Notes: generated from the sequence alone by a model not told the origin. A stretch of 64,000 nt of DNA from a virus (IMGVR_UViG_3300014204_000107:43468-107467); one strand, 5' to 3'; numbered from the stretch's first letter, positions 1 through 39,180 are shown. A program made the numbers and translations.

Positions 1-12
1 ACAGGAGAACTA

Positions 13-258
13 ATGGTATATATTGACACCGCAGACAAGCGTGGTTGGTCACATTTAATTGCCACCTCAATAGAAGAATTGCATAAATTTGCAATTGGTA
101 TAGGACTTAAACGAGAATGGTTTCAAGATAAACCAGGACATCCGCATTACGATGTTGGAAGAACATTGAGAAAAATAGCAATTACTAATGGTGCTAAATC
201 TATTTCTAAGAAAGAATTAGTTTTGGTACTTGAACAATATTATGCATTGCAAAATTAA
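13..258 (+). CDS. DUF4031-like phage protein (GWSHL...ELH.FA..IGL...WFQ...HYDV motif)
   Basis: ORF track; motif pattern recalled for the DUF4031 family; start may lie upstream of the window. Confidence 0.4.
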   Translation: MVYIDTADKRGWSHLIATSIEELHKFAIGIGLKREWFQDKPGHPHYDVGRTLRKIAITNGAKSISKKELVLVLEQYYALQN

Positions 259-289
259 TTAATGGAGGTGAAAACAACTGCAATACCGG

Positions 290-470
290 GTGCGCAACTG
301 GTATAGTGATTAGTTTAAAGTCAAAGCGGGAGTGGCTACCCTTGTAGGTTAAAATCCTACATCACGTGCAGAAGTATTAATTAATTGCAATGTGTTTTGG
401 TCTCGATTACAGTGGTCTGGCATTATACAATGTTGGGGTTCGAATCCCTCTATCGAGCAAAGTTAATGGT
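290..470 (+). ncRNA. tRNA-like elements: element 1 has a T-arm (GTAGG-TTAAAAT-CCTAC, 344-360) plus acceptor-3'-like tail; element 2 (402-458) has acceptor (CTCGATT/TATCGAG), D-arm and T-arm (GGGGTTCGAATCCCT) but only a 9-nt linker where the anticodon arm should be
   Basis: Manual folding; ORF-free 230-nt gap; neither element folds into a complete cloverleaf. Confidence 0.3.
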
Positions 471-489
471 TACAAATTAAATTATCAAA

Positions 490-1854
490 ATGACAAAAAG
501 AGAGCAGTATGCTCATCTTATAATGGATGAGTATCGTAAAGAAACGGCGGATCAAACGTCTTTCTTATCAATTTTTATTAAATCAACAATAGGATATAGC
601 CATTTAGTTGATTTATTAAGAAACAAACGCATTGCAAAGTTCGAAATGATTAATGCTAAATTGCCCATTTATATGAGTGGTGCAGGATTTGTATTTGAAG
701 ATGCAAAAGTAGTAACAAAAAAGAAAGCAGCTATTGCGTCATTAAAAAGCAATAAAAAAAGCAAAAGTTACCGTAGGTTTTGTATTCAAAACAAAACCGG
801 ACTATTTAAAGTAGAATTGCTTACTGGCGAAGTTATTATATGGGTAAGCTACTATTGGGGCATGGGTAAGATAGAAGAGTTGGAATGTATTTTATGTGGC
901 AAGGAAAAGGATGTACAAAAGCTATATACAATTATAGATAAACAACGAGACAGGCAAAAGAAGCCAAAAGTTGGCGTACATTATGCATATTCTGATAGTG
1001 CAGGCATAGTACATTATGATGAATTAGATTATCCGCTAACACCAGTTATTCACCCAATATGCAAAGATGTAGCACAGCATATTGATTTCTATTTTAACAA
1101 TGTTGAAAAATATTGCATTAACAATAGGGCAGGAAATAAAAACGTATTAATATATGGTGAGCAAGGAACTGGTAAATCATCATTGTTATACCGGATTGCC
1201 GACAAATATAAAAATACACATTCAGTTGTGTTTTGCGGAGATATTGTAGCAGTATATAAACATTGTAAATTATGTGCAAAATATAAAGTACCCACTATAA
1301 TCATATTTGAAGACGCTGAAGGTGCGCTTAGTGATAACAATAGTGCTATTAAGAATTTCTTATCGGGAGTTGATACACCACGCAATATTGCTGGATGCTA
1401 TACTATTTTTACATCTAACTACCCAAAGAAAATTGAAGGAACAATTATTAAACGCAAGGGGCGTATTGATAGGTTATTTGAAATGGGTAAATTAGGTGGT
1501 AAATTTCTTGAAAAATGTATTAGGCTATATTTTGACCCATATGTAAATGACGAATATAGGGAAGAAATTTATGGATATTTAATGGAAAAGACATTAAGTG
1601 GCAGTGAAATAATGGTATTAGCTGAAGAATCTCTAACGTCAGCAGCAAAGGATGGTATTTCTACAATAGAACCAAAGCATGTTAAAGAAATGTATGCAAC
1701 TTGGGTGGATGAATTTGAAAAACTTAAAAATACTAAAGACGACGCATCTGATTTGGATAGCGGAAATAAACGCAAATTAGGGTTCGCAACAAATGCGTCT
1801 AGCATGCATATGACAGCAGCAGATGATTATTTTGCAGATGTTGAGGCATTTTAA
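490..1854 (+). CDS. AAA+ family ATPase (Walker A GEQGTGKSS, Walker B IIIFEDAE)
   Basis: Walker A/B motifs in translation. Confidence 0.6.
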   Translation: MTKREQYAHLIMDEYRKETADQTSFLSIFIKSTIGYSHLVDLLRNKRIAKFEMINAKLPIYMSGAGFVFEDAKVVTKKKAAIASLKSNKKSKSYRRFCIQNKTGLFKVELLTGEVIIWVSYYWGMGKIEELECILCGKEKDVQKLYTIIDKQRDRQKKPKVGVHYAYSDSAGIVHYDELDYPLTPVIHPICKDVAQHIDFYFNNVEKYCINNRAGNKNVLIYGEQGTGKSSLLYRIADKYKNTHSVVFCGDIVAVYKHCKLCAKYKVPTIIIFEDAEGALSDNNSAIKNFLSGVDTPRNIAGCYTIFTSNYPKKIEGTIIKRKGRIDRLFEMGKLGGKFLEKCIRLYFDPYVNDEYREEIYGYLMEKTLSGSEIMVLAEESLTSAAKDGISTIEPKHVKEMYATWVDEFEKLKNTKDDASDLDSGNKRKLGFATNASSMHMTAADDYFADVEAF

Positions 1855-1945
1855 TATTAATAATTCGATTTTTTTAGATAATTTAATACTTATTTGTTTA
1901 ACCATCACAGGAAAATATATGTATTAAACAATTTGGAGAAATTGA

Positions 1946-2497
1946 ATGAAAAGAGCAACATTAATGGGAAACAAGATTCCCTACGAATATTTCATTACCA
2001 AAGGAAAAGGTGAAAGTGATATCACAACCCACGCTGGATCTTATCATCTAGCGTTGAAAGAAGCTGGTATAGAAAAATTTAATATAATGACTTATTCGTC
2101 AATATTACCCAAACAAGCAAAACAAATTCCTAATTGCCCAAGATGGTTAACATTTGGCGCTGTAATGGATACCATAATGGCATGTGCAAATGGAACTAAA
2201 GGTGAAACTATTAGTGCTGGCATTATTACTGGCTGGTTATATGATACTAAGGATGTTAAATATGGCGGATTAGTATGTGAACACAATGGTAATATAGAAC
2301 CAGATAAATTGCGTACTAATCTTTATGCAAGTTTAATGGAATTATATGAAAATGGGTTCAAGCAAAAGGGTTATAATCTAAAGTATATAGATACAATGGT
2401 AGAATCAACAACAATAACAAAAGAATATGGTACGGTTTTATGTGCTATATGCTTTGTAAATTACTTATATCCAGTCTTTAAAAAAGAATTGGAATAG
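1946..2497 (+). CDS. pdaD: pyruvoyl-dependent arginine decarboxylase-like (PvlArgDC fold; self-cleavage-type NIMTYSSILP serine pair)
   Basis: HAGSYHLALKEAGIEKFNIMTYSSILP closely parallels the archaeal PdaD cleavage-site region (…AGIGNVNLIRISSIMP). Confidence 0.55.
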   Translation: MKRATLMGNKIPYEYFITKGKGESDITTHAGSYHLALKEAGIEKFNIMTYSSILPKQAKQIPNCPRWLTFGAVMDTIMACANGTKGETISAGIITGWLYDTKDVKYGGLVCEHNGNIEPDKLRTNLYASLMELYENGFKQKGYNLKYIDTMVESTTITKEYGTVLCAICFVNYLYPVFKKELE

Positions 2498-2513
2498 ATA
2501 TACGATTAAAATA

Positions 2514-2546
2514 AATGGTTGCATAATTATATATGCAACCATTTTT
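2514..2546 (+). terminator. rho-independent terminator (ATGGTTGCATA-loop-TATGCAACCAT + T5)
   Basis: 10-bp perfect stem followed by T-run directly after the stop at 2497. Confidence 0.6.
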
Positions 2547-2553
2547 GTGACTG

Positions 2554-3000
2554 ATGATTGAAGATAAAAATATAAACATTCACCGCAGCAGACTGGACTC
2601 TAAATTTACCGTCGGTATAATTTATAGGGGGCACGAGGACTATAAAATTGTCAAGCAACAATTTAATAAATATGGTCTGGCAGCAATGGATACGGAGCAT
2701 AGAATTATATTCATTGATGGTGAAGCTATTAAAGGATTAACACAAGGTCATTTATACTTTATTGAGGCACATGAAATTGTACATTATAAATTAAACCATA
2801 CAAATCCAATGACAAAAGAAAAGGAAATGGAAGCTGATTTTGGTGCATGTTTATTATGTAAGCATAAACAGTTAATTGATGCATATAATATTGGTATTAG
2901 CCAATTTTATTTAAGAAATAATGTTATGTACGGCACATATAATAAATTATATGGTAAAAATATTAGAAAAAAACTTAATTTTGCGGAGAATATGATATGA
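2554..3000 (+). CDS. hypothetical protein with HExxH motif (EAHEIVHYKLNH), possible small metallopeptidase
   Basis: HExxH in translation. Confidence 0.4.
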   Translation: MIEDKNINIHRSRLDSKFTVGIIYRGHEDYKIVKQQFNKYGLAAMDTEHRIIFIDGEAIKGLTQGHLYFIEAHEIVHYKLNHTNPMTKEKEMEADFGACLLCKHKQLIDAYNIGISQFYLRNNVMYGTYNKLYGKNIRKKLNFAENMI

Positions 3001-3323
3001 ACGAATTAGATGATGCTTTAGATAAATTATATACTATAACTGAAGATGAACAAACTAATCAAATTAAGCAACAACCAATTAAAATTGGAACTGCTAATTT
3101 TACAGTAATGGTGGTTATTAGTGATAGCAAAAAATTAGTAATGCAGTTTATACCGCAAACATCCATGGACTTAGATAATGCAAATAAAAATCCAGCAATG
3201 TTTTCTGCCATATCACAGAAACTTAAAGAAAGGGGGTTAGTAAACTATTATCTTAAACATGCTGATAGTGCCGGGTATGCATTTGAAATAGATTTGTACC
3301 AGTTACCTAACATATTGAGATAG
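2997..3323 (+). CDS. hypothetical protein
   Basis: ORF, overlapping start/stop with neighbours (ATGA). Confidence 0.4.
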   Translation: MNELDDALDKLYTITEDEQTNQIKQQPIKIGTANFTVMVVISDSKKLVMQFIPQTSMDLDNANKNPAMFSAISQKLKERGLVNYYLKHADSAGYAFEIDLYQLPNILR

Positions 3324-3325
3324 AT

Positions 3326-3829
3326 ATGAGTAAACTATATTGCTTTGACTTCGATGACTCAATTGCTACTACAGACGCAAGAATTAAATTAACAAATAAA
3401 AATAAGTCGCGCTATTTAACACCCCATGAATTTGCAGATTATAAGCAACAGCCAGGTGACGTATTTGATTATAGTGAATTCCGTGGTGAGTTACGCAATC
3501 CACAAATAATTGAAAAGTATTTTGAAGTATTTAAAAAGATATTTAAAGCAGTTGGTGATAAGTTAGTAATATTAACTGCCAGGGGAGATGCAGCACCAAT
3601 ACATAAATTTCTTGCTTTGCACGGACTAACAGGTATTAATATTGTAGCATTGGGTGCTTCAAATTCACCACAAGAAAAGAAAGATTGGATTGAAAAGCAA
3701 ATTATAAACGGGACGGATGACATATTATTTATGGATGATTCAATTGAAAATGTTATGGCAGTGCGGAGTTTAAAAGAAAAATATCCAAAAATAAAATTAG
3801 ATGCGCGAGTTATAAAACAAAAACATTAA
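3326..3829 (+). CDS. HAD-superfamily hydrolase (motif I FDFDDSIATT, motif IV FMDDSIEN)
   Basis: DxDx(T/S) and DD motifs. Confidence 0.55.
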   Translation: MSKLYCFDFDDSIATTDARIKLTNKNKSRYLTPHEFADYKQQPGDVFDYSEFRGELRNPQIIEKYFEVFKKIFKAVGDKLVILTARGDAAPIHKFLALHGLTGINIVALGASNSPQEKKDWIEKQIINGTDDILFMDDSIENVMAVRSLKEKYPKIKLDARVIKQKH

Positions 3830-3831
3830 TA

Positions 3832-4143
3832 ATGGAAAAGGAATTTAGAAAAGAAAAATTTACAGTAGCATTGCTTACATTAGATAAAGTAGGAGACCAT
3901 ATTAATGTGTCATATGATATATTTTATAATAAAGTAAACATTGGTCATGCAACATTTGCATCCCATAAAGATGGTCCAATTAGTGGCAGAAACATAATAG
4001 AAATAAAATTAGATAAAGAAGCATTTGAATTTGATACATTACATTTTGTTCACCCAATAATTAAACGGCAAGGCGTATCTTTCACAGAAGATAATATTAA
4101 ACAATATATAGAAAGCATACTATTAGATGAAAACAATTCTTAG
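3832..4143 (+). CDS. hypothetical protein
   Basis: ORF in operonic context. Confidence 0.4.
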   Translation: MEKEFRKEKFTVALLTLDKVGDHINVSYDIFYNKVNIGHATFASHKDGPISGRNIIEIKLDKEAFEFDTLHFVHPIIKRQGVSFTEDNIKQYIESILLDENNS

Positions 4144-4708
4144 TTATTCAATTATTGAGCAAGCATTAAAGAAAACTAATTCAGTTACTGCGGCAGCTCG
4201 ACTATTAAATGTATCATACAATACAATAAAAAAGCATACTAAAGCATTGGTTGATTCAAATAATATTAGTTTATTTGATAAGTATAAAAATAAGACTGGC
4301 AAAGGCATACCACATAATAAAAAAACATACAAACTTAAAATTGAACAAGTTTTAACAAACCAAATAAAAGATTATCCGTTGTGGTTGCTTAAGAAACAAT
4401 TAATAAGACTTGGCATGTTTAAGGAAGAATGTGAATTATGCGGATTTGATGAAAAAAGATTTACAGATGGTGAAATTCCCCTACTACTTTGCCAGAAAGA
4501 TGGTGATAAAAATAATTATCAAATAGATAATTTAGAGTTACTTTGCTATAATTGCTATTTTTTAACAGTTGGTAATATTTTTGGCAAAGGTATAACAAGA
4601 AAAAATGCAACAATAGCGCAACTTGAACATAAATTAGATAGTGCAATCGAGGATATTGATTTTGACCCTCGCAGAGATATTAATTGGGAGACGATTGACG
4701 ATGAGTAA
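4127..4708 (+). CDS. putative DNA-binding protein with N-terminal HTH-like segment and C-terminal Cys cluster (CELCG...LLCQKDGDKNNYQIDNLELLCYNCY; HNH-like fold lacking His)
   Basis: Motif inspection. Confidence 0.4.
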   Translation: MKTILSYSIIEQALKKTNSVTAAARLLNVSYNTIKKHTKALVDSNNISLFDKYKNKTGKGIPHNKKTYKLKIEQVLTNQIKDYPLWLLKKQLIRLGMFKEECELCGFDEKRFTDGEIPLLLCQKDGDKNNYQIDNLELLCYNCYFLTVGNIFGKGITRKNATIAQLEHKLDSAIEDIDFDPRRDINWETIDDE

Positions 4709-4985
4709 ACAATATGATGAATTAATGAAAGAGTATTTTAGAAGCAATGTTGAATTTAAAAAAACTCAATTTGATACATTGCAAGCTAAATGGGAAAACA
4801 CCCACCACCCGGAAAATCCTGTGTTTGCACAAAGAGTATTCTGGATTGCATTTTGTACTAAAGAAGGCAATTTATCTGTTGGGTTTAAATTAGATCTTCG
4901 GCGACCACCATACTGGATATTACATAAGCAAATTGACCCAAAAAAATTTAGAAGCGAAATATTTGAAATATGGAAAAAACAATAA
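4701..4985 (+). CDS. hypothetical protein
   Basis: ORF; start moved to ATG overlapping upstream stop. Confidence 0.4.
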   Translation: MSKQYDELMKEYFRSNVEFKKTQFDTLQAKWENTHHPENPVFAQRVFWIAFCTKEGNLSVGFKLDLRRPPYWILHKQIDPKKFRSEIFEIWKKQ

Positions 4986-4986
4986 T

Positions 4987-5328
4987 ATGGCAAAGAAAGT
5001 TAAACAACAATTAAAGAAAATACTACATAAGGGCCCCGAAGACTTAATTAAAAATGTCTTCACAGAATCAAATATAGATGTTGCAAGTATAATGCTTGAG
5101 TCAATTGAATTTGCAATTGAACATGAATTAGATGTTGCCCCACTATTTGAATTATGTTTCACTAAAGATGGCAAAACTGCATATGACGATATGCCTGTTC
5201 AATTTTATTGCATCAACAGTGAATGGAAAGATGGATTAAAATACCTTAATAATATATTTTTAACACAGGAGCAGTATGAGTATTGCGGAAAAGTTAATAC
5301 ATTATTATCTAAATTGGAGAATAAATAA
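4987..5328 (+). CDS. hypothetical protein
   Basis: ORF. Confidence 0.4.
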   Translation: MAKKVKQQLKKILHKGPEDLIKNVFTESNIDVASIMLESIEFAIEHELDVAPLFELCFTKDGKTAYDDMPVQFYCINSEWKDGLKYLNNIFLTQEQYEYCGKVNTLLSKLENK

Positions 5329-5876
5329 TGGCATCACAGGGTCCGTACTCCCCAGGTAGCACGTTTGTTGAGTCTGCATTAGGATCGGTGGTGTGGGACA
5401 GCCCGGATAATGTAAAAGTAGATGATACTAATTATGCAACAGCATCTTCCGCGGTCAGTGGGTTTACAAAAATATTAAAAGCATATAATTTTGGCTTTTC
5501 AATACCATCGGACAGCAGGATATCCGGCATTAAAGCCGAGGTTAAAAAAAAAGCAGAGACGGAGAATGTTACTGATTCATGGGTGATATTAACTGGCGGG
5601 TCGAATTTGTCTACTGGTGCTGAATGGCCTGCAGTGGAACAATATGTGACGTATGGTGGTGAAACGGAATTATGGGGAGCAAGCTACGCGCCAGAATATA
5701 TTAATGACCCGAGGTTTGGATTTAGGTGTGGTGCATTGTTAGGCATAAATGCCACGGCATCTATTAATCACATACGATTAACAGTATATTATACATCTAC
5801 TAAATATGTTGTATATGATGATCCAGATATGCAATATGTTGAATTTGAAAACCAATATGTGATATATGATGATTAA
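5328..5876 (+). CDS. hypothetical protein
   Basis: ORF. Confidence 0.4.
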   Translation: MASQGPYSPGSTFVESALGSVVWDSPDNVKVDDTNYATASSAVSGFTKILKAYNFGFSIPSDSRISGIKAEVKKKAETENVTDSWVILTGGSNLSTGAEWPAVEQYVTYGGETELWGASYAPEYINDPRFGFRCGALLGINATASINHIRLTVYYTSTKYVVYDDPDMQYVEFENQYVIYDD

Positions 5877-6421
5877 AATGGGTTTTCATACGACCCATTC
5901 ACATCCCCGAAGCAAAGAACGGGTATGTTTTTCACCACATCAGCACTACTCATAGTAACTATTCTATTCCCATAACACCAATCTCCTGCTGGAAACTCAG
6001 TGACCATCCCAGTAAATCGTTGGGTAACCAATAGACTGTCATTGCTATTGATAATTCCATTTGCATCCACGTCCGCCGCTGCTATTTGTAATGGTGTTGT
6101 AAGAACGCTGGAGGTTCCTCCGACATACTGCTGTATCACTATTGCATCAGTACTATTAACTCCTCCCCACGAACAAGTAATATTAAAATTAATATTATAA
6201 TACCCATCCTTTACATTATTAAAAATATAATAACCGCTACTGTCTGTATTTGCCATTGATGATGTTTGGCTACCAGTTATTAATAATATCTGCTGGTTTG
6301 CATAAGAAGTACTTACTTCGTTTTCATAATATATTTGGCCAGAAATATTATGGGCTGAGTATGTTAGCCAATAGCTTCCGCTATGAATAGTTATACCGTT
6401 GTATGTGATGTAATATTCCAT
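5873..6421 (-). CDS. secreted/surface protein with dockerin-like Ca-binding repeats (DVDANGIINSNDSLLV; GDVNGSYENP)
   Basis: Dockerin/EF-hand-like DxDxNGxIN repeats; convergent with upstream gene, divergent from the fibre gene. Confidence 0.45.
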   Translation of the reverse strand: MEYYITYNGITIHSGSYWLTYSAHNISGQIYYENEVSTSYANQQILLITGSQTSSMANTDSSGYYIFNNVKDGYYNINFNITCSWGGVNSTDAIVIQQYVGGTSSVLTTPLQIAAADVDANGIINSNDSLLVTQRFTGMVTEFPAGDWCYGNRIVTMSSADVVKNIPVLCFGDVNGSYENPF

Positions 6422-6492
6422 GAATTCGTTATTTATAATAAATATATTGATTTAGAATTTATAATGAGATCAGGTGAATTTAAATAATTATT

Positions 6493-7902
6493 TTGTACTT
6501 TTACCATATATATTTATTAAAATCACAAACTGGATCATTTGCAACCACAGCATCAAATTCTTTTACAGGAAATCAAATTGTCAATGGCAATATAATATCT
6601 ACTGGCTCAATATCAATGTCTGGTAGCTTAAATTTAGTTGGTAATGCAAATATTAATGGCACACTTACATATGTTGGTAAATTAATGCATAGAATTGTTG
6701 TCAGCCCATCTGGAAGTTTCACTACACTAAAGGATGCAGTTGATTACTTTAATGCATCAGCCGCATCTGATACAGAAATATTATTAGATGCTGGGATCCA
6801 CTTAATTACTGATACTGTAACTGTTAATAATTCTAGCTATTCATTGCAAATACGAGGTCTTAGTTATGGGGTGACAGCCTTACATGCTGCTACCGGTTTA
6901 ACTAATAAACCAATGTTTAATATAAGAAGTCACTGTGATATCAATAAAATAACAGCATCTGGGGCATCATTACTAAATTATGGGACTGCCCCGACTGAAA
7001 ACTTTATTAATTTTGATACCACCAATGCAATATATTCAGAAGTTACAGATATTTTTATTGATACTTTTAATATAGCAATATATGATACTGCAGGTACCAA
7101 TATATTTATATTTAATTTTGCCATGTCTGACTGTACTACTGCCGGAATCAGAATTAATACTGCAAATAGTAATGCATATTTGGATTGTGAAGTCGGTTCT
7201 TTTGCAAACAATGCAATTTCTATAGATCTATTGAAAGCAAACACTGGCGGGTTTTTAATCGATACATCAACATTTAATAATAGTAGTGGGCAAACATCAA
7301 TAAAATATACGGGAGGGGCTGGTAATTATATTAATGCTGGTGTATGCCAAATTACTGGCTGTTCGTATAATGGTGTAGGAACATTTATCACCGGTTTTGA
7401 TTTTTCTCTTACAACTGGCAGGGATGCCAACATTATAGTTATGTATAATACTGGTGAAGAAAATAAAAACCCACATGCAAAAATAAATGTTTTAAATAAT
7501 TCTTCATCCGTTGTCATTCCTGGCAATAATATATTTATCAAATCAAATTTCACGGCGTCATCAACTTATACTACAAAGTGGACGATAGAAAATAATAGGG
7601 CAATCTACCAACCATCAAATGTAAGGGATGCATTGATGTGGATCAATGCAAATGTTATTTGCACCAATCAAAATAATAGAAACATTGATATTGGAATCGT
7701 TAAAAATTCATTGACTTCTTCTGGTATATTTGGTCAAATGACTTGTAGAGCAGCAAATTCAGCTGAAACATATCCAATTAGTACAAATGTATACCTTGAA
7801 GATTGTACAAGTGGAAGTTATTATGAAATATGGGTTTCAAGTGCTAATGCAGCTGATCAAATAATATTACAAGATATTAATTGGTTAATTGAAGCAAGAT
7901 AG
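6493..7902 (+). CDS. tail fibre / receptor-binding protein, predicted right-handed beta-helix (N/T/S/G-rich repeats)
   Basis: Composition and repetitive NxT/SxS pattern typical of pectate-lyase-fold fibres. Confidence 0.5.
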   Translation: MYFYHIYLLKSQTGSFATTASNSFTGNQIVNGNIISTGSISMSGSLNLVGNANINGTLTYVGKLMHRIVVSPSGSFTTLKDAVDYFNASAASDTEILLDAGIHLITDTVTVNNSSYSLQIRGLSYGVTALHAATGLTNKPMFNIRSHCDINKITASGASLLNYGTAPTENFINFDTTNAIYSEVTDIFIDTFNIAIYDTAGTNIFIFNFAMSDCTTAGIRINTANSNAYLDCEVGSFANNAISIDLLKANTGGFLIDTSTFNNSSGQTSIKYTGGAGNYINAGVCQITGCSYNGVGTFITGFDFSLTTGRDANIIVMYNTGEENKNPHAKINVLNNSSSVVIPGNNIFIKSNFTASSTYTTKWTIENNRAIYQPSNVRDALMWINANVICTNQNNRNIDIGIVKNSLTSSGIFGQMTCRAANSAETYPISTNVYLEDCTSGSYYEIWVSSANAADQIILQDINWLIEAR

Positions 7903-7916
7903 AATTTTAAAATAAA

Positions 7917-7945
7917 AAAAAAAGCCTGCAACAGCAGGCTTTTAT
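7917..7945. terminator. bidirectional terminator (A-run, GCCTGC-AACA-GCAGGC, T-run) between convergent genes
   Basis: Perfect hairpin flanked by A10 and T4. Confidence 0.6.
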
Positions 7946-7962
7946 TTTATAGAATGTTTATA

Positions 7963-8466
7963 TTAATTAGATCGAATTACAGTATTTGCTGCATCTGCTA
8001 ATGCATTTGCAACGACATCAGGCACTCCGTGTGCTTTGCAATATTCAATAACAGCATCCGCAAATACGTCTTGGTCCACCATATAATCTAATGCAGTATT
8101 CCAATTATCAGTCACAGCAAACTCATCATTGCCAGCAAAAGCATTTATTGCATCTTCTTCACTTTCAAAATCTTCAGCATCAAATCCTAAACTAACTTCC
8201 CATGCCTCACCTGTACCGTCTTCTTCTACAATAGACATTTTACGCATTGACGGTTGTTTCATGCTGTTGGGGTCTTGTGCATCTACTGCATCCTCAGTAT
8301 TTAATTTTTGTATGTCTTCTTTAGTAAGAGGCTTGATATATTCTCTCCCCGTAAGCATGCTTACTCCTTGTGGAATATGAAACCCAAGGGATGCATTTTG
8401 ACTAATAACTGAGTTACATAACTCAAATGCTTCTTTTAATATTTTTTTAGTGTCTGGTGTTGGCAT
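7963..8466 (-). CDS. acidic hypothetical protein
   Basis: ORF; ends before the bidirectional terminator. Confidence 0.45.
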   Translation of the reverse strand: MPTPDTKKILKEAFELCNSVISQNASLGFHIPQGVSMLTGREYIKPLTKEDIQKLNTEDAVDAQDPNSMKQPSMRKMSIVEEDGTGEAWEVSLGFDAEDFESEEDAINAFAGNDEFAVTDNWNTALDYMVDQDVFADAVIEYCKAHGVPDVVANALADAANTVIRSN

Positions 8467-11433: not shown

Positions 11434-11622
11434 TTGAGTATGAGTTCAAGCAAACAACGTAATAGCATAGGATTAGGAACAATCTTATTTATTGTATTCT
11501 TAGTCTTAAAATTAACGCACGTAATTGATTGGTCATGGTGGTGGGTAACTGCCCCGTTATGGATTCCGATTGGAATAATGTTATTAATTATTGCATTAGT
11601 ATTAATATTTTTAAAACATTAA
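11434..11622 (+). CDS. small membrane protein
   Basis: ORF, two hydrophobic helices. Confidence 0.35.
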   Translation: MSMSSSKQRNSIGLGTILFIVFLVLKLTHVIDWSWWWVTAPLWIPIGIMLLIIALVLIFLKH

Positions 11623-11633
11623 GGAGAAATAAA

Positions 11634-12476
11634 ATGATAGAATTTCAAAGAGATAAAGATAGTTTGCTTGAATATCAATTTATTAAGAAATTAGATTTAA
11701 ACAAACCGCAATTAATAGTGGATTTACACTGCGTCTTGCAAGGTGAAGGCAAATTTATGGGCGTACCCCATATACTTATCAGATTTTCTGGTTGTAATAT
11801 GAACTGCATGTTTTCAGATTGGCTATGTGACACCAGTTATGCTTCGTGGCACGCAGAAGGTACAAAATATTCTATAAATGATGTAATAGAATTGCTATAT
11901 GCAAACCCGCATATTGATCACATAATGATTACTGGCGGAGAGCCTTTTCTTAATAAATCATTATTGCACACTATCACGCATTTAATAAAGACAATTGATA
12001 CACGGTATTGGATAACAGTTGAAACCAATGGTACCATGGGTTATTTTGATAGCAAAAACGAAGAGAATTTGCCAATCATAGACTTTATATCAATGTCACC
12101 AAAGCTGAAAAATTCAGTTCCTATTCCAGGTACTACTGCAATTGATCCATACGTCAGCAGAACAATTACCGAGCAAGACAAAATAAGGCACGAAGAATGG
12201 CGAACAAACTATAAAAACATGAATGAGATACTTGACCATTGTGCTGACTTTCAATTAAAGTTCGTTGTTACTACTGAAGACCAAATTGAAGAAATAGAAA
12301 CAGTGCGCCAAGCACTTGGTGTAGATATGGAAGATACTTATTTAATGCCAGAAGGAGTTACTGCTAACCAACTTGCTAAGAGAAGGCAATGGGTAATGGA
12401 AAAATGTATTGAAAAAGGTTATAAGTATAGTGACAGATTACATATTGTTTGCTACGGAAATGCTAGAACTGCTTAA
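11634..12476 (+). CDS. queE: QueE-like radical-SAM enzyme (7-carboxy-7-deazaguanine synthase family) with atypical Cx3Cx6C cluster motif followed by CDTSYASW and ITGGEPF
   Basis: GCNMNCMFSDWLCDT and ITGGEPFLN motifs; GGAG-like RBS upstream of the internal Met chosen as start. Confidence 0.5.
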   Translation: MIEFQRDKDSLLEYQFIKKLDLNKPQLIVDLHCVLQGEGKFMGVPHILIRFSGCNMNCMFSDWLCDTSYASWHAEGTKYSINDVIELLYANPHIDHIMITGGEPFLNKSLLHTITHLIKTIDTRYWITVETNGTMGYFDSKNEENLPIIDFISMSPKLKNSVPIPGTTAIDPYVSRTITEQDKIRHEEWRTNYKNMNEILDHCADFQLKFVVTTEDQIEEIETVRQALGVDMEDTYLMPEGVTANQLAKRRQWVMEKCIEKGYKYSDRLHIVCYGNARTA

Positions 12477-15697: not shown

Positions 15698-16201
15698 ATG
15701 AAAACATACACCAAAGAAGAATTAGATGAAATTTTAAAAAACCATTCTCTGTGGTTGGTTGATAGTACCACAGGAGAAAGAGCCAACCTCAGTTCTGCCA
15801 ACCTCCGTTCTGCCGACCTCAGTTATGCCGACCTCCGTTCTGCCAACCTCCGTTCTGCCGACCTCAGTTATGCCGACCTCCGTTCTGCCAACCTCCGTTA
15901 TGCCGACCTCAGTTATGCCAACCTCAGTTATGCCAACCTCCGTTCTGCCAACCTCAGTTATGCCGACCTCGACTTTTCGTGTTGGTCGCTGTCGTGTGAT
16001 TCCCTAAACGTAAATGTTGATGAAAAGCTGTTCTATCAATTGCTTTTTCATACCCTTTCGCTCAAAGGACTTTCCCAAAGCGAAGACTTCCGCAAGGTTT
16101 ACAAGACTTGTAAGGACATTGCCAACAAGTTTCATCGTACAGAAATAGCAAGATTGGAAGATTTGCCCGACCAGGCAGAAGCCGAAAGGGGGCAGAAATG
16201 A
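15698..16201 (+). CDS. pentapeptide-repeat protein (A[DN]L[SR]xA[DN]L tandem repeats) with C-terminal non-repeat domain
   Basis: About 19 consecutive pentapeptide repeats; N-terminus EL.EILKNHSLWL shared with 38275. Confidence 0.65.
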   Translation: MKTYTKEELDEILKNHSLWLVDSTTGERANLSSANLRSADLSYADLRSANLRSADLSYADLRSANLRYADLSYANLSYANLRSANLSYADLDFSCWSLSCDSLNVNVDEKLFYQLLFHTLSLKGLSQSEDFRKVYKTCKDIANKFHRTEIARLEDLPDQAEAERGQK

Positions 16202-33034: not shown

Positions 33035-33107
33035 GCATAGGTAGATTTAATTGGTAAAATCCCTTCATTTTAGGAGGAAGATGGTGGTTCGATTCCACCT
33101 CTATGCA
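33035..33107 (+). tRNA. tRNA-Lys (anticodon UUU), no encoded CCA
   Basis: 7-bp acceptor (GCATAGG/TCTATGC), D-arm GATT/AATC with GG loop, anticodon loop AUUUUAG (U33, A37), T-arm GGTGG-TTCGATT-CCACC; N26 register ambiguous. Confidence 0.55.
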
Positions 33108-38274: not shown

Positions 38275-39180
38275 ATGACAACAACAGAATTAAAAACTAT
38301 TTTATCTAATCATAAATTATGGTTAAATGGTAAAAAAAATGGAGTTTGTGCCGATTTAGGAGGTGTTGATTTAAGCGGTGCTAATTTAAGCAATGCTAAT
38401 TTAAGATATGCTAATTTACGCGGTGCTAATTTAAGCTATGCTAATTTAAGATGTGCTAATTTAAGCGGTGCTAATTTAAGCGGTGCTAATTTAAGCAATG
38501 CTAATTTACGCGGTGCTAATTTAAGCAATGCTAATTTAAGCAATGCTAATTTACGCGGTGCTGATTTAAGCGGTGCTGATTTAAGCGATGCTGATTTAAG
38601 CAATGCTGATTTAAGCAATGCTGATTTAAGCAATGCTGATTTAAGCAATGCTGATTTAAGCAATGCTGATTTAAGCAATGCTGATTTAAGCAATGCTAAT
38701 TTAAGCGGTGCTAATTTAAGCGGTGCTAATTTAGGCGGTGCTGATTTAAGCGGTGCTAATTTACGCGGTGCTAATTTACGCGGTGCTAATTTAAGATATA
38801 CTAATTTAAGCGGTGCTAATTTAAGCAATGCTAATTTACAAAATATTTTAATTAATGAATTATCAGCGTTCATACCATTATCGTGCCCCGAGGAAGGAAG
38901 TTTTATTGCATTTAAAACCGCGCAGAATCATATTATTAAATTATTAATACCAGAAGACGCAAAACGGAGTTCGGCAACATCATATAAATGTAGAGCATCA
39001 AAGGCAAAAGTACTTGAAATTAGTGATGAACTATCAAGCATACAATCTGATTATGATAACAACTTTGTCTATGCTGTTGGTGAAACAATTGAAGTAGATA
39101 ATTTTGATGAGTGTAGATGGAATGAATGCTCAACTGGAATACACTTTTTTATGTCTAAAGAACTTGCAAGGCAATATTAA
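38275..39180 (+). CDS. pentapeptide-repeat protein (about 35 A[ND]L[SR]xA repeats) with C-terminal globular domain
   Basis: Tandem pentapeptide repeats; N-terminal [13 protein letters not shown] shared with 15698. Confidence 0.65.

What the first reader, a model, noticed from the sequence alone, without database searches (positions are those of the whole stretch)
1946..2497. Phage-encoded pyruvoyl-dependent arginine decarboxylase-like gene
The translation carries the PvlArgDC hallmark …AGIEKFNIMTYSS|ILP, a Ser-Ser self-cleavage site generating the pyruvoyl group. It aligns well with the archaeal PdaD segment. Agmatine/polyamine synthesis by phages is rare. It may serve DNA packaging (polyamine counter-ions) or acid resistance modulation of the host. 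An AAA+ ATPase sits immediately upstream.
Basis: partly seen in the sequence, partly recalled or inferred. Interest (0 to 1): 0.5.

Follow-up and report, generated by a model that had tools for sequence, protein, structure and literature searches.

The report
Huge-phage pyruvoyl arginine decarboxylase gene
A probable ~300-kb bacteriophage carries an intact copy of a self-cleaving arginine decarboxylase of the archaeal/Bacteroidales type, most likely to make agmatine that host enzymes turn into polyamines; phages are already known to do this kind of thing, but not with this enzyme family.

Summary
Window 1946-2497 (+) encodes a 183-aa protein that matches Pfam PF01862 (PvlArgDC) over its full length (E 5.6e-30). 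An AlphaFold model (pLDDT 93) matches only the M. jannaschii PvlArgDC structures. The protein keeps the Ser51|Ser52 self-cleavage site, Asn46 and Glu112. It belongs to a large, uncharacterised subfamily found mainly in Bacteroidales MAGs, DPANN archaea and CPR bacteria. This subfamily has His where the archaeal enzyme has Asp35 and scores below NCBI's equivalog cutoffs. In about 50 of 56 bacterial genomes the subfamily gene lies next to speB-like and/or speY-like genes, the agmatine-dependent homospermidine pathway, so agmatine production is the best-supported activity. The phage copy stands alone: about 86 scanned ORFs and 79 kb of DNA show no partner enzyme. It keeps 60 of 64 near-invariant positions, has the phage's base composition, and is nucleotide-identical in four assemblies. 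The contig (299 kb) looks like a huge phage, although no structural gene lies in the window. No PF01862 relative exists in 50,697 GenBank phages. At least 8 distinct homologs occur in IMG/VR, mostly on large contigs. A 2023 survey of viral polyamine enzymes did not report this fold. Verdict: a new member of a known kind, of moderate interest.

The parts
1946..2497 (+). Gene for the 183-aa PvlArgDC-family proenzyme (20.6 kDa). Predicted products are a beta chain, residues 1-51 (5.8 kDa), and an alpha chain, residues 52-183 (14.9 kDa), carrying an N-terminal pyruvoyl group.
   Evidence: ORF; Pfam PF01862 E 5.6e-30; AF2 pLDDT 93.4; Foldseek finds only MjPvlArgDC, TM 0.72/0.82; masses.
2096..2101 (+). 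Codons TCG TCA for Ser51-Ser52, the predicted serinolysis site. Ser52 would become the pyruvoyl cofactor.
   Evidence: Aligns to Mj Ser52-Ser53 (S53A in 1n2m). Invariant in 54 clade members and kept in all 8 distinct viral homologs.
2081..2083 (+). Codon for Asn46, the equivalent of Mj Asn47 (mutated to Ala in PDB entry 2qqd).
   Evidence: Alignment; invariant in the clade. A role in self-processing is recalled from the structural literature and was not verified here.
2279..2281 (+). Codon for Glu112, the equivalent of Mj Glu109, whose carboxylate facilitates cleavage.
   Evidence: Alignment; role stated in PMC2720952; invariant in the clade.
2045..2047 (+). Codon for His34, which aligns with Mj Asp35. 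His is found here throughout the clade (motif HAGSYHLAL).
   Evidence: The giant-virus MAG homolog L024 keeps Asp.
2153..2155 (+). Codon for Phe70. At least 95% of 80 cellular clade members have His here. Phe is shared by 4 of the 8 distinct viral homologs.
1935..1938 (+). GGAG, 7 nt upstream of the ATG, within a 91-nt AT-rich intergenic spacer (1855-1945).
   Evidence: Read directly from the sequence. Its significance is doubtful because such motifs are not enriched upstream of genes in this window.
2513..2544 (.). A 13-bp-stem hairpin 16 nt after the stop codon, with T-rich sequence on both sides. It looks like a bidirectional terminator.
   Evidence: One search lists it on the minus strand. 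On the plus strand the stem is followed by TTTTTGTG if the terminal A-T pairs are counted as tail.
490..1854 (+). Upstream neighbour, a 454-aa AAA+ ATPase. It is context only and is not shown to be functionally linked.
   Evidence: PF00004 E 1.7e-7; phrog_7485; best phage relative is crAss-like cr10_1; absent beside PvlArgDC in other viral loci.

Best explanation
The gene encodes a functional pyruvoyl-dependent L-arginine decarboxylase carried as an auxiliary metabolic gene by a large (~299 kb) phage, possibly one that infects Bacteroidota. Shown here: the sequence, the fold and the catalytic residues. Inferred by homology: the 20.6-kDa proenzyme cleaves itself between Ser51 and Ser52, helped by Asn46 and Glu112, giving a 5.8-kDa beta chain and a 14.9-kDa alpha chain whose N-terminal Ser52 becomes a pyruvoyl group; the enzyme assembles as an (alpha-beta)3 trimer; arginine forms a Schiff base with the pyruvoyl group and loses CO2 to give agmatine. 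Inferred from the gene context of cellular relatives and from the literature: the phage encodes no downstream enzyme in the 79 kb examined, so agmatine is handed to host enzymes. In Bacteroidales-type hosts these would be SpeY and SpeB, which convert agmatine through bis-guanidino-homospermidine to homospermidine. The effect would be to raise polyamine supply at the committed step during infection, for phage translation, replication and neutralisation of a very large packaged genome.
For: Family and fold: PF01862 at full length, E 5.6e-30. The AF2 model has pLDDT 93.4, and its only significant PDB matches are MjPvlArgDC chains. Catalytic residues Asn46, Ser51-Ser52 and Glu112 align to Mj Asn47, Ser52-Ser53 and Glu109. 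Constraint: 60 of 64 positions that are at least 95% conserved in 80 cellular homologs are retained. Gene GC and GC3 match the phage, and the gene is nucleotide-identical in 4 assemblies. Clade function: speB-like and/or speY-like genes lie within 3 kb in about 50 of 56 bacterial loci, and SpeY/SpeB clusters with an ADC of any fold, including pylADC, make homospermidine from agmatine (PMC13625781). Phage context: PHROG and phage matches; no partner enzymes. Precedent: phage ADCs are thought to feed host agmatine-to-putrescine enzymes (PMC9992855).
Against: No member of this His34 subfamily has, to my knowledge, been assayed. The whole clade scores below the NCBIfam equivalog cutoffs. Mj Asp35, which I recall as a contact for the substrate guanidinium but could not verify, is His here. 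The phage copy also has Phe at a position where at least 95% of cellular members have His. The host is unknown, so the presence of host SpeY/SpeB or any other agmatine-using enzyme is assumed. Only 79 kb of the 299-kb contig could be examined for partner genes or structural genes.
Confidence: 0.65

Rival explanations
1. The enzyme is an active arginine decarboxylase, but agmatine, arginine depletion or proton consumption is the end in itself. Agmatine could serve directly as a divalent counter-ion for the packaged genome, or the reaction could buffer cytoplasmic pH as in the Chlamydia AaxABC and E. coli AdiAC systems, or drain host arginine.
For: The gene is solo in the window and in all other viral loci. 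It is also solo in 21 of 24 DPANN/CPR/'Methanosarcinales' loci, so the enzyme can be useful without adjacent speB or speY. PF01862 enzymes serve acid resistance in Chlamydia (PMC2720952).
Against: No arginine:agmatine antiporter, porin or any transporter family was found among about 86 scanned ORFs. The closest bacterial relatives are almost always clustered with biosynthetic genes, not with antiporters.
Confidence: 0.17
2. The viral copies have changed function and decarboxylate a different substrate, such as ornithine, lysine or an amino-acid moiety attached to a macromolecule. Phage AdoMetDC homologs are known to have made this kind of change.
For: His70 to Phe, at a position at least 95% conserved in cells, is shared by 4 of 8 viral lineages. 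His replaces Mj Asp35 throughout the clade. Pyruvoyl decarboxylases have demonstrably switched substrate in phages (PMC9992855; PMC10407285). Operon context has been lost.
Against: Sixty of 64 near-invariant positions are retained, including the whole HAGSYHLAL, NIMTYSSILP and GGLVCEHNG blocks. Other viral lineages (L015-L017, L022) keep His70. Mj has Met at that position, so it is not a family-wide catalytic residue.
Confidence: 0.1
3. The gene is not phage-encoded: the contig is cellular or plasmid DNA, or an assembly chimera. Alternatively, the gene is a decaying pseudo-enzyme.
For: No capsid, portal, terminase or tail gene was found in the 64-kb window or its flanks. The contig is not in IMG/VR.
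Against: The gene and its flanks are at least 99.9% identical in four independent assemblies. Nearly all genes are small, on one strand and without Pfam hits. Many match PHROGs (endonuclease VII, DUF3310, DUF932, DUF4031, NAMPT plus PRPP synthetase), with best matches in crAss-like and 190-484-kb phages. Composition is uniform. All catalytic residues are intact.
Confidence: 0.05

Closest known systems
Methanocaldococcus jannaschii PdaD (PvlArgDC; PDB 1mt1, 1n13, 1n2m, 2qqc, 2qqd)
   Same: Same Pfam family and same fold (TM 0.72/0.82, rmsd 2.8 A over about 162 columns). Same Ser-Ser cleavage site, Asn and Glu.
   Different: Only 25-27% identity. Below the TIGR00286 and NF009064 equivalog cutoffs. 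His34 in place of Asp35 and Phe70 in place of Met69. Phage-borne.
Bacteroidales/Cloacimonadota/DPANN-type 'pylADC' linked to speB-speY (agmatine-dependent homospermidine pathway; Li et al., JBC 2026, PMC13625781)
   Same: 56-65% identity. Shares 60 of 64 near-invariant positions and all signature motifs. This is the subfamily the phage protein belongs to.
   Different: The phage gene has no speB or speY neighbour, lacks the ~20-aa N-terminal extension of Bacteroidales proteins, and carries H70F. Its donor lineage is unresolved.
Phage and virus arginine decarboxylases described by Li et al., PNAS 2023 (PMC9992855): AdoMetDC-derived pyruvoyl ADC of pelagiphage HTVC201P, and ODC-derived PLP ADC of chlorovirus PBCV-1
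   Same: Same proposed role: a virus-encoded ADC that makes agmatine for host (pelagiphage) or viral (PBCV-1) downstream enzymes. The pelagiphage enzyme also uses a pyruvoyl cofactor.
   Different: Unrelated folds (SpeD/AdoMetDC fold and alanine-racemase fold). The PF01862 fold was not reported in that survey and is absent from 50,697 GenBank phages.
Chlamydia AaxB (PF01862 arginine decarboxylase of the AaxABC acid-resistance system)
   Same: A bacterial member of the same Pfam family that self-cleaves and decarboxylates arginine (PMC2720952).
   Different: AaxB works with the AaxC antiporter and AaxA porin encoded in the same operon. No such genes are in the window. From memory, AaxB cleaves at Thr-Ser; this was not checked here.

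Membership tests
Pfam PF01862 (PvlArgDC superfamily) | Profile match above the gathering threshold over the whole domain | tested here: met
   104.8 bits against a 22.7-bit cutoff, profile 1-161 of 161.
Pfam PF01862 (PvlArgDC superfamily) | The PvlArgDC fold as in 1n2m and 1mt1 | tested here: met
   AF2 pLDDT 93.4, pTM 0.87. In Foldseek against the PDB, all 12 hits with E<=0.001 are MjPvlArgDC chains, and nothing else is significant.
Pfam PF01862 (PvlArgDC superfamily) | Internal Ser-Ser (or Thr-Ser) serinolysis site aligned with Mj Ser52-Ser53 | tested here: met
   Ser51-Ser52; invariant in the clade.
Pfam PF01862 (PvlArgDC superfamily) | Equivalents of Mj Asn47 and Glu109 | tested here: met
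   Asn46 and Glu112. The role of Glu109 is stated in PMC2720952.
Pfam PF01862 (PvlArgDC superfamily) | Actual self-cleavage to a pyruvoyl enzyme, and L-arginine decarboxylase activity | not testable with these tools
   Needs expression, SDS-PAGE or mass spectrometry, and an enzyme assay.
Archaeal PdaD equivalog (NCBIfam TIGR00286 / NF009064) | Score above the curated equivalog cutoff | tested here: not met
   64.3 against 106.95 and 49.3 against 207. Seven other clade members, six cellular and one viral (P0106), also fail at 33-63 bits. I therefore do not file it as a PdaD equivalog.
Archaeal PdaD equivalog (NCBIfam TIGR00286 / NF009064) | Asp at Mj position 35 (recalled as a contact for the substrate guanidinium; not verified) | tested here: not met
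   His34 in the query and throughout the clade. L024 and Mj have Asp.
Bacteroidales/DPANN-type pylADC subfamily | Signature blocks GESDITxHAGSYHLAL, NIMTYSSILP and GGLVCEHNG, and the near-invariant positions | tested here: met
   60 of 64 positions at least 95% conserved in 80 cellular members are retained; 56-65% identity.
Bacteroidales/DPANN-type pylADC subfamily | Clustering with speB (Arginase family) and/or speY (DS family) | tested here: not met
   About 50 of 56 bacterial loci have such a neighbour. None was found in the window plus flanks (~79 kb) or in the viral loci. This describes the bacterial operon and is not a feature of the protein family; DPANN and CPR members are also solo.
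Virus-encoded AdoMetDC-derived pyruvoyl ADC (Li et al. 2023) | SpeD/AdoMetDC fold | tested here: not met
   The only Pfam hit is PF01862, and the fold search finds only PvlArgDC.
AaxABC/AdiAC-type acid-resistance module | Arginine:agmatine antiporter encoded alongside the decarboxylase | tested here: not met
   No permease or transporter family among the scanned window ORFs or in the precomputed Pfam annotation.
Bacteriophage genome (Caudoviricetes, huge phage) | Virion and packaging hallmark genes (major capsid, portal, terminase, tail) | tested here: inconclusive
   None in the window or flanks, but only about 79 of 299 kb was accessible. Indirect support comes from PHROG matches, strand bias, many ORFs without any family, and relatives in crAss-like and 190-484-kb phages.

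The most novel reading that the evidence does not exclude
The PF01862 copies carried by huge phages may form a virus-adapted lineage, marked by loss of operon context and by the recurrent His70-to-Phe change at a position almost invariant in cells. Their substrate or purpose may differ from host polyamine biosynthesis. They might decarboxylate another amino acid or an amino-acid adduct, or supply agmatine as a dedicated counter-ion or as a building block for a nucleic-acid modification in very large genomes.
Probability: 0.1. Interest if true: 0.7.

Novelty: new member of a known kind. Interest (0 to 1): 0.38.

Why it matters
Phage-encoded polyamine enzymes are an established class of auxiliary metabolic genes. 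The arginine decarboxylases known from viruses come from two other folds, AdoMetDC-derived and ODC-derived. This finding would add the PdaD/PF01862 fold as a third, independent route by which viruses have acquired arginine decarboxylation. It appears mostly on very large phage genomes, is missing from deposited phage genomes, and was not reported in the 2023 systematic survey. It also draws attention to a large, biochemically untested His34 subfamily of PF01862 that appears to be the agmatine source for the recently described SpeY/SpeB homospermidine pathway in Bacteroidales. The phage protein is small and easy to express, which makes it a convenient representative to characterise. The conceptual advance is modest, because it extends a known theme rather than opening a new one.

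Tried and rejected
1. DNA similarity of window 1-8000 to GenBank phages found no match, so the phage could not be identified by nucleotide similarity.

2. An exact 44-mer from the gene was searched in IMG/VR and found nothing, so the contig is not in that collection.

3. I tried to verify the Mj substrate-binding residues (Asp35) in the literature. Searches for PvlArgDC, Glu109 and Asp35 returned nothing relevant, and the structural papers (PubMed 18391404, 12623016; a guessed PMC id) are not held. The role of Asp35 therefore stays a recollection.

4. Phylogenetic placement: NJ trees with 200 bootstraps on two datasets did not resolve the donor lineage or a phage clade (best groupings 38/200 and 13/200). 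A first Biopython attempt timed out.

5. A functional link between the AAA+ ATPase and PvlArgDC was rejected, because no AAA+ homolog lies beside the gene in any other viral locus.

6. Prophage or host-operon carry-over was rejected, because speB, speY, CN-hydrolase and PLP-decarboxylase homologs are absent from all viral loci and the gene's composition matches the phage.

7. A look-up of window protein 38275-39177 found no record, so the 30-48 kb stretch was annotated by direct Pfam and PHROG scans instead.

8. The Bacteroidota -7 promoter motif TAnnTTTG is only modestly enriched in intergenic DNA (16 of 55 occurrences in 18% of the bases) and has no exact match upstream of this gene. I treat it as a weak hint about the host.

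Full report

Window 1946-2497 (+) is an ATG-initiated ORF of 183 codons whose product contains ...AGIEKFNIMTYSSILP.... It matches Pfam PF01862 (PvlArgDC) at E 5.6e-30 and 104.8 bits (cutoff 22.7), over profile positions 1-161 of 161.

Against PDB sequences, the best hits are the M. jannaschii PvlArgDC chains (E 3e-8). In that alignment query Asn46, Ser51-Ser52 and Glu112 fall on Mj Asn47, Ser52-Ser53 and Glu109. Glu109 is described as the carboxylate that facilitates cleavage in this family (PMC2720952).

An AlphaFold2 model built on 54 homologs has mean pLDDT 93.4 and pTM 0.87. In a Foldseek search of the PDB, its only significant matches (12 chains, E<=1e-5) are MjPvlArgDC structures, with TM 0.72/0.82 and rmsd 2.8 A over about 162 columns.

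The only correction is that cleavage is predicted between the two serines (TYS|SILP), not after them. The predicted products are a beta chain, residues 1-51 (5.8 kDa), and an alpha chain, residues 52-183 (14.9 kDa).

**2. Which part of the family does it belong to?**

The protein scores below both NCBIfam equivalog models for pyruvoyl-dependent ArgDC (64.3 against 106.95, and 49.3 against 207). It is only about 27% identical to Mj PdaD.

A search of the 5.8-billion-protein collection returned 1,500 hits. One is an identical protein on a ~299-kb contig. All others listed are 54-63% identical, and those that carry a source name are labelled Bacteroidetes/Bacteroidales, Marinilabiliales, Cloacimonadales, Bacteriovoracaceae, Woesearchaeota or Pacearchaeota.

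These proteins share the blocks GESDITxHAGSYHLAL, NIMTYSSILP and GGLVCEHNG. Throughout the clade, His occupies the position of Mj Asp35. I recall Asp35 as a contact for the substrate guanidinium but could not verify this.

Seven other clade members, six cellular and the viral P0106, also fall below the equivalog cutoffs at 33-63 bits. The low score is therefore a property of an un-modelled subfamily and not a defect of the phage copy.

In a scan of 185,579 species-representative genomes, 328 carry a relative. The best 80 are mostly Bacteroidales MAGs, plus DPANN archaea, CPR bacteria, Cloacimonadota and a few others.

**3. What does the subfamily do in cells?**

In three of four cellular contexts examined with precomputed Pfam annotation, the gene is directly followed by an Arginase-family gene and/or a deoxyhypusine-synthase-family (DS) gene.

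Across the 80 genome loci, a speB-like and/or speY-like gene lies within 3 kb in about 50 of 56 bacterial (non-CPR) loci. This is true of only 3 of 24 DPANN, CPR or 'Methanosarcinales' loci.

This is the cluster described by Li et al. (JBC 2026, PMC13625781). SpeY, a DHS homolog, condenses agmatine to N1,N9-bis(guanidino)homospermidine. A SpeB homolog then hydrolyses that to homospermidine. [quoted passage not shown]

Gene context therefore supports agmatine production as the physiological activity of this subfamily. To my knowledge, no member of it has been assayed.

**4. Is the phage copy intact and at home?**

- Of 64 alignment columns at least 95% conserved among the 80 cellular proteins, the window protein keeps 60. 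The differences are R10K, H70F, E75D and V166C.
- Its GC (32.2%) and GC3 (22.8%) lie within the range of the window's other ORFs (35 +/- 5% and 28 +/- 8%).
- The gene is nucleotide-identical, with flanks at least 99.9% identical, in four independent assemblies: ENA ERZ27247350, Logan SRR6484787 and SRR18595299, and JGI 3300035208.
- It is preceded by a 91-nt AT-rich spacer and followed by a 13-bp-stem hairpin at 2513-2544.

This is a long-resident, constrained gene. It is not a recent capture, a chimera or a pseudogene.

**5. Is the surrounding DNA a phage?**

The window maps to the middle of a 299,185-bp contig. Nearly all genes are on one strand, most are small, and most have no Pfam family.

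Those with matches are typical of the accessory regions of large phages:
- DUF4031, DUF932 and DUF3310
- endonuclease VII and GIY-YIG
- NAMPT plus a PRPP-synthetase-like gene
- ADP-ribosylglycohydrolase
- a QueE-like radical SAM enzyme
- a Ro60/TROVE protein, an SPFH protein and MoxR-like AAA ATPases

The closest GenBank phage relatives of three window proteins are crAss-like phages, a 484-kb uncultured phage (LR756508) and a 190-kb Microcystis phage.

No capsid, portal, terminase or tail gene lies in the window or in the accessible flanks, and the contig is not in IMG/VR. The phage assignment is therefore well supported but indirect.

Shine-Dalgarno-like motifs are not enriched upstream of genes (7 of 74 against a 9% background). 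Together with the crAss-like matches and the Bacteroidales relatives, this hints at a Bacteroidota host. The -7 promoter motif is only weakly enriched.

**6. Does the phage carry partner genes?**

No. tblastn with cellular SpeB, SpeY, CN-hydrolase and PLP-decarboxylase sequences found nothing in the window plus flanks (~79 kb) or in any viral locus.

Pfam scans of about 86 window ORFs returned no polyamine-pathway or transporter family. The upstream AAA+ ATPase is real, but it is not found beside PvlArgDC in any other viral locus.

**7. How unusual is this in viruses?**

tblastn with three queries found nothing in 50,697 GenBank phage records. The queries were the window protein, the Mj PdaD fragment and a divergent viral homolog. 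There is no PHROG for the protein.

A scan of IMG/VR (2.9 million contigs), limited to exact peptide patterns, found 11 loci encoding 8 distinct homologs. They lie on contigs of 676, 349, 208, 156, 86, 59, 48, 38, 20 and 6 kb, plus one giant-virus MAG.

The 676-kb contig's copy is 57% identical to the window protein. It lies near a T4 gp13-like neck gene and an Acb1-like gene, and it occurs in the same samples as the window's phage.

Neighbours in the other viral loci are phage-like: ParB-PAPS reductase, thymidylate synthase, endonuclease VII, T4 RNA ligase, RadC, DUF932 and ribosomal L7/L12. No polyamine family appears among the 25 families listed, out of 33 matched.

All viral homologs keep the YSS site and the catalytic Glu. 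Four of the eight share His70 to Phe. NJ trees do not resolve whether they form one lineage.

The systematic survey by Li et al. (PNAS 2023, PMC9992855) reported phage pyruvoyl ADCs derived from AdoMetDC and the chlorovirus ODC-derived ADC. It found no AR-fold or AAT-fold ADCs in viruses and did not mention the PF01862 fold. Full-text searches found no other report.

**8. Most likely mechanism**

- Shown: sequence, fold, catalytic residues, constraint, and the solo phage context.
- Inferred by homology: self-cleavage at Ser51|Ser52 to give a pyruvoyl enzyme, trimer assembly, and Schiff-base decarboxylation of L-arginine to agmatine.
- Inferred from cellular synteny and the literature: agmatine is handed to host enzymes (SpeY/SpeB to homospermidine in Bacteroidales-type hosts). 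This would raise polyamine supply for phage translation, replication and neutralisation of a very large packaged genome.

Confidence in this explanation is about 0.65.

The rivals are:
- agmatine, arginine depletion or pH effects as the end in itself (0.17)
- a change of substrate in the viral copies (0.10)
- a non-phage origin or an inactive gene (0.05)

**9. Verdict**

It is a new member of a known kind. A known enzyme family, in a divergent and untested subfamily, is playing a known type of viral role (a polyamine auxiliary metabolic gene). The combination has apparently not been described, and it recurs on very large phage genomes. Interest is moderate, at 0.38.

Noticed in passing
window 2153-2155 (Phe70); L014, L018, L019-L023: His70 is at least 95% conserved in 80 cellular clade members but is Phe in 4 of the 8 distinct viral homologs, including the window protein and the copies on the 676-kb and 349-kb contigs. 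This could reflect common descent among huge phages or a convergent viral adaptation. The role of the residue is unknown.
   Followed up: partly
L001/L014/L025 (IMGVR_UViG_3300035208_009193, 675,678 bp; also ENA ERZ27247350 k141_1026434): A second, much larger putative phage carries its own solo PvlArgDC (P0106, 57% identical). It occurs in the same three datasets as the window's phage (ERZ27247350, JGI 3300035208, SRR18595299). The gene lies near a T4 gp13-like neck gene and an Acb1-like 2',5'-ligase-fold gene.
   Followed up: partly
window 33035-33107 (+): The only tRNA gene in the window (Rfam RF00005, 42.6 bits). ARAGORN cannot assign an anticodon and reads a 6-nt anticodon loop (ATTTTA) with a two-base 'tt' anticodon. 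It may be a degenerate or unusual (frameshift- or suppressor-type) tRNA.
   Followed up: no
window 26670-28118 (+): A Ro60/TROVE plus vWA protein (PF05731 E 3e-19; phrog_850). Rfam found no Y-RNA-like partner at gathering threshold anywhere in the window.
   Followed up: no
window 57163-58095, 58502-59152, 59149-60687 (+): An NAD-salvage pair, a PRPP-synthetase-like gene (Pribosyltran_N; PHROG 'ribose-phosphate pyrophosphokinase') and NAMPT (phrog_448, E 1e-163), with an endonuclease VII gene between them.
   Followed up: no
window 11529-12476 (+): A QueE-like radical SAM protein (phrog_2076, E 4e-43). No QueC, QueD, FolE or DpdA partner was seen among the neighbouring ORFs scanned.
   Followed up: no
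window 5873-6421 (-); L002 6644-7801: A dockerin type I domain protein on the minus strand, and a faint cohesin hit on a 385-aa protein about 1.4 kb upstream of the window start. This may be a cohesin-dockerin pair in a phage.
   Followed up: no
window 15698-16201 (+) compared with L012 6685-7143: A pentapeptide-repeat gene differs by exactly 45 bp (15 aa) between the window (167 aa) and the ENA assembly (152 aa). This is copy-number variation in an internal repeat between otherwise 99.9% identical genomes. A second pentapeptide plus DUF5758 protein lies at 38275-39180.
   Followed up: no
whole window: Shine-Dalgarno-like 4-mers are not enriched upstream of ORFs (7 of 74 against a 9.2% background). 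The best phage relatives of the AAA+ and DUF932 proteins are crAss-like phages. Both points suggest a Bacteroidota host. TAnnTTTG is only 1.6-fold enriched in intergenic DNA.
   Followed up: partly
genome loci L027-L106: Within the subfamily, bacterial members are almost always clustered with speB and/or speY, while DPANN, CPR and 'Methanosarcinales'-labelled MAG members are almost always solo (3 of 24 have a partner). Agmatine probably has a different fate in those small-genome organisms.
   Followed up: no
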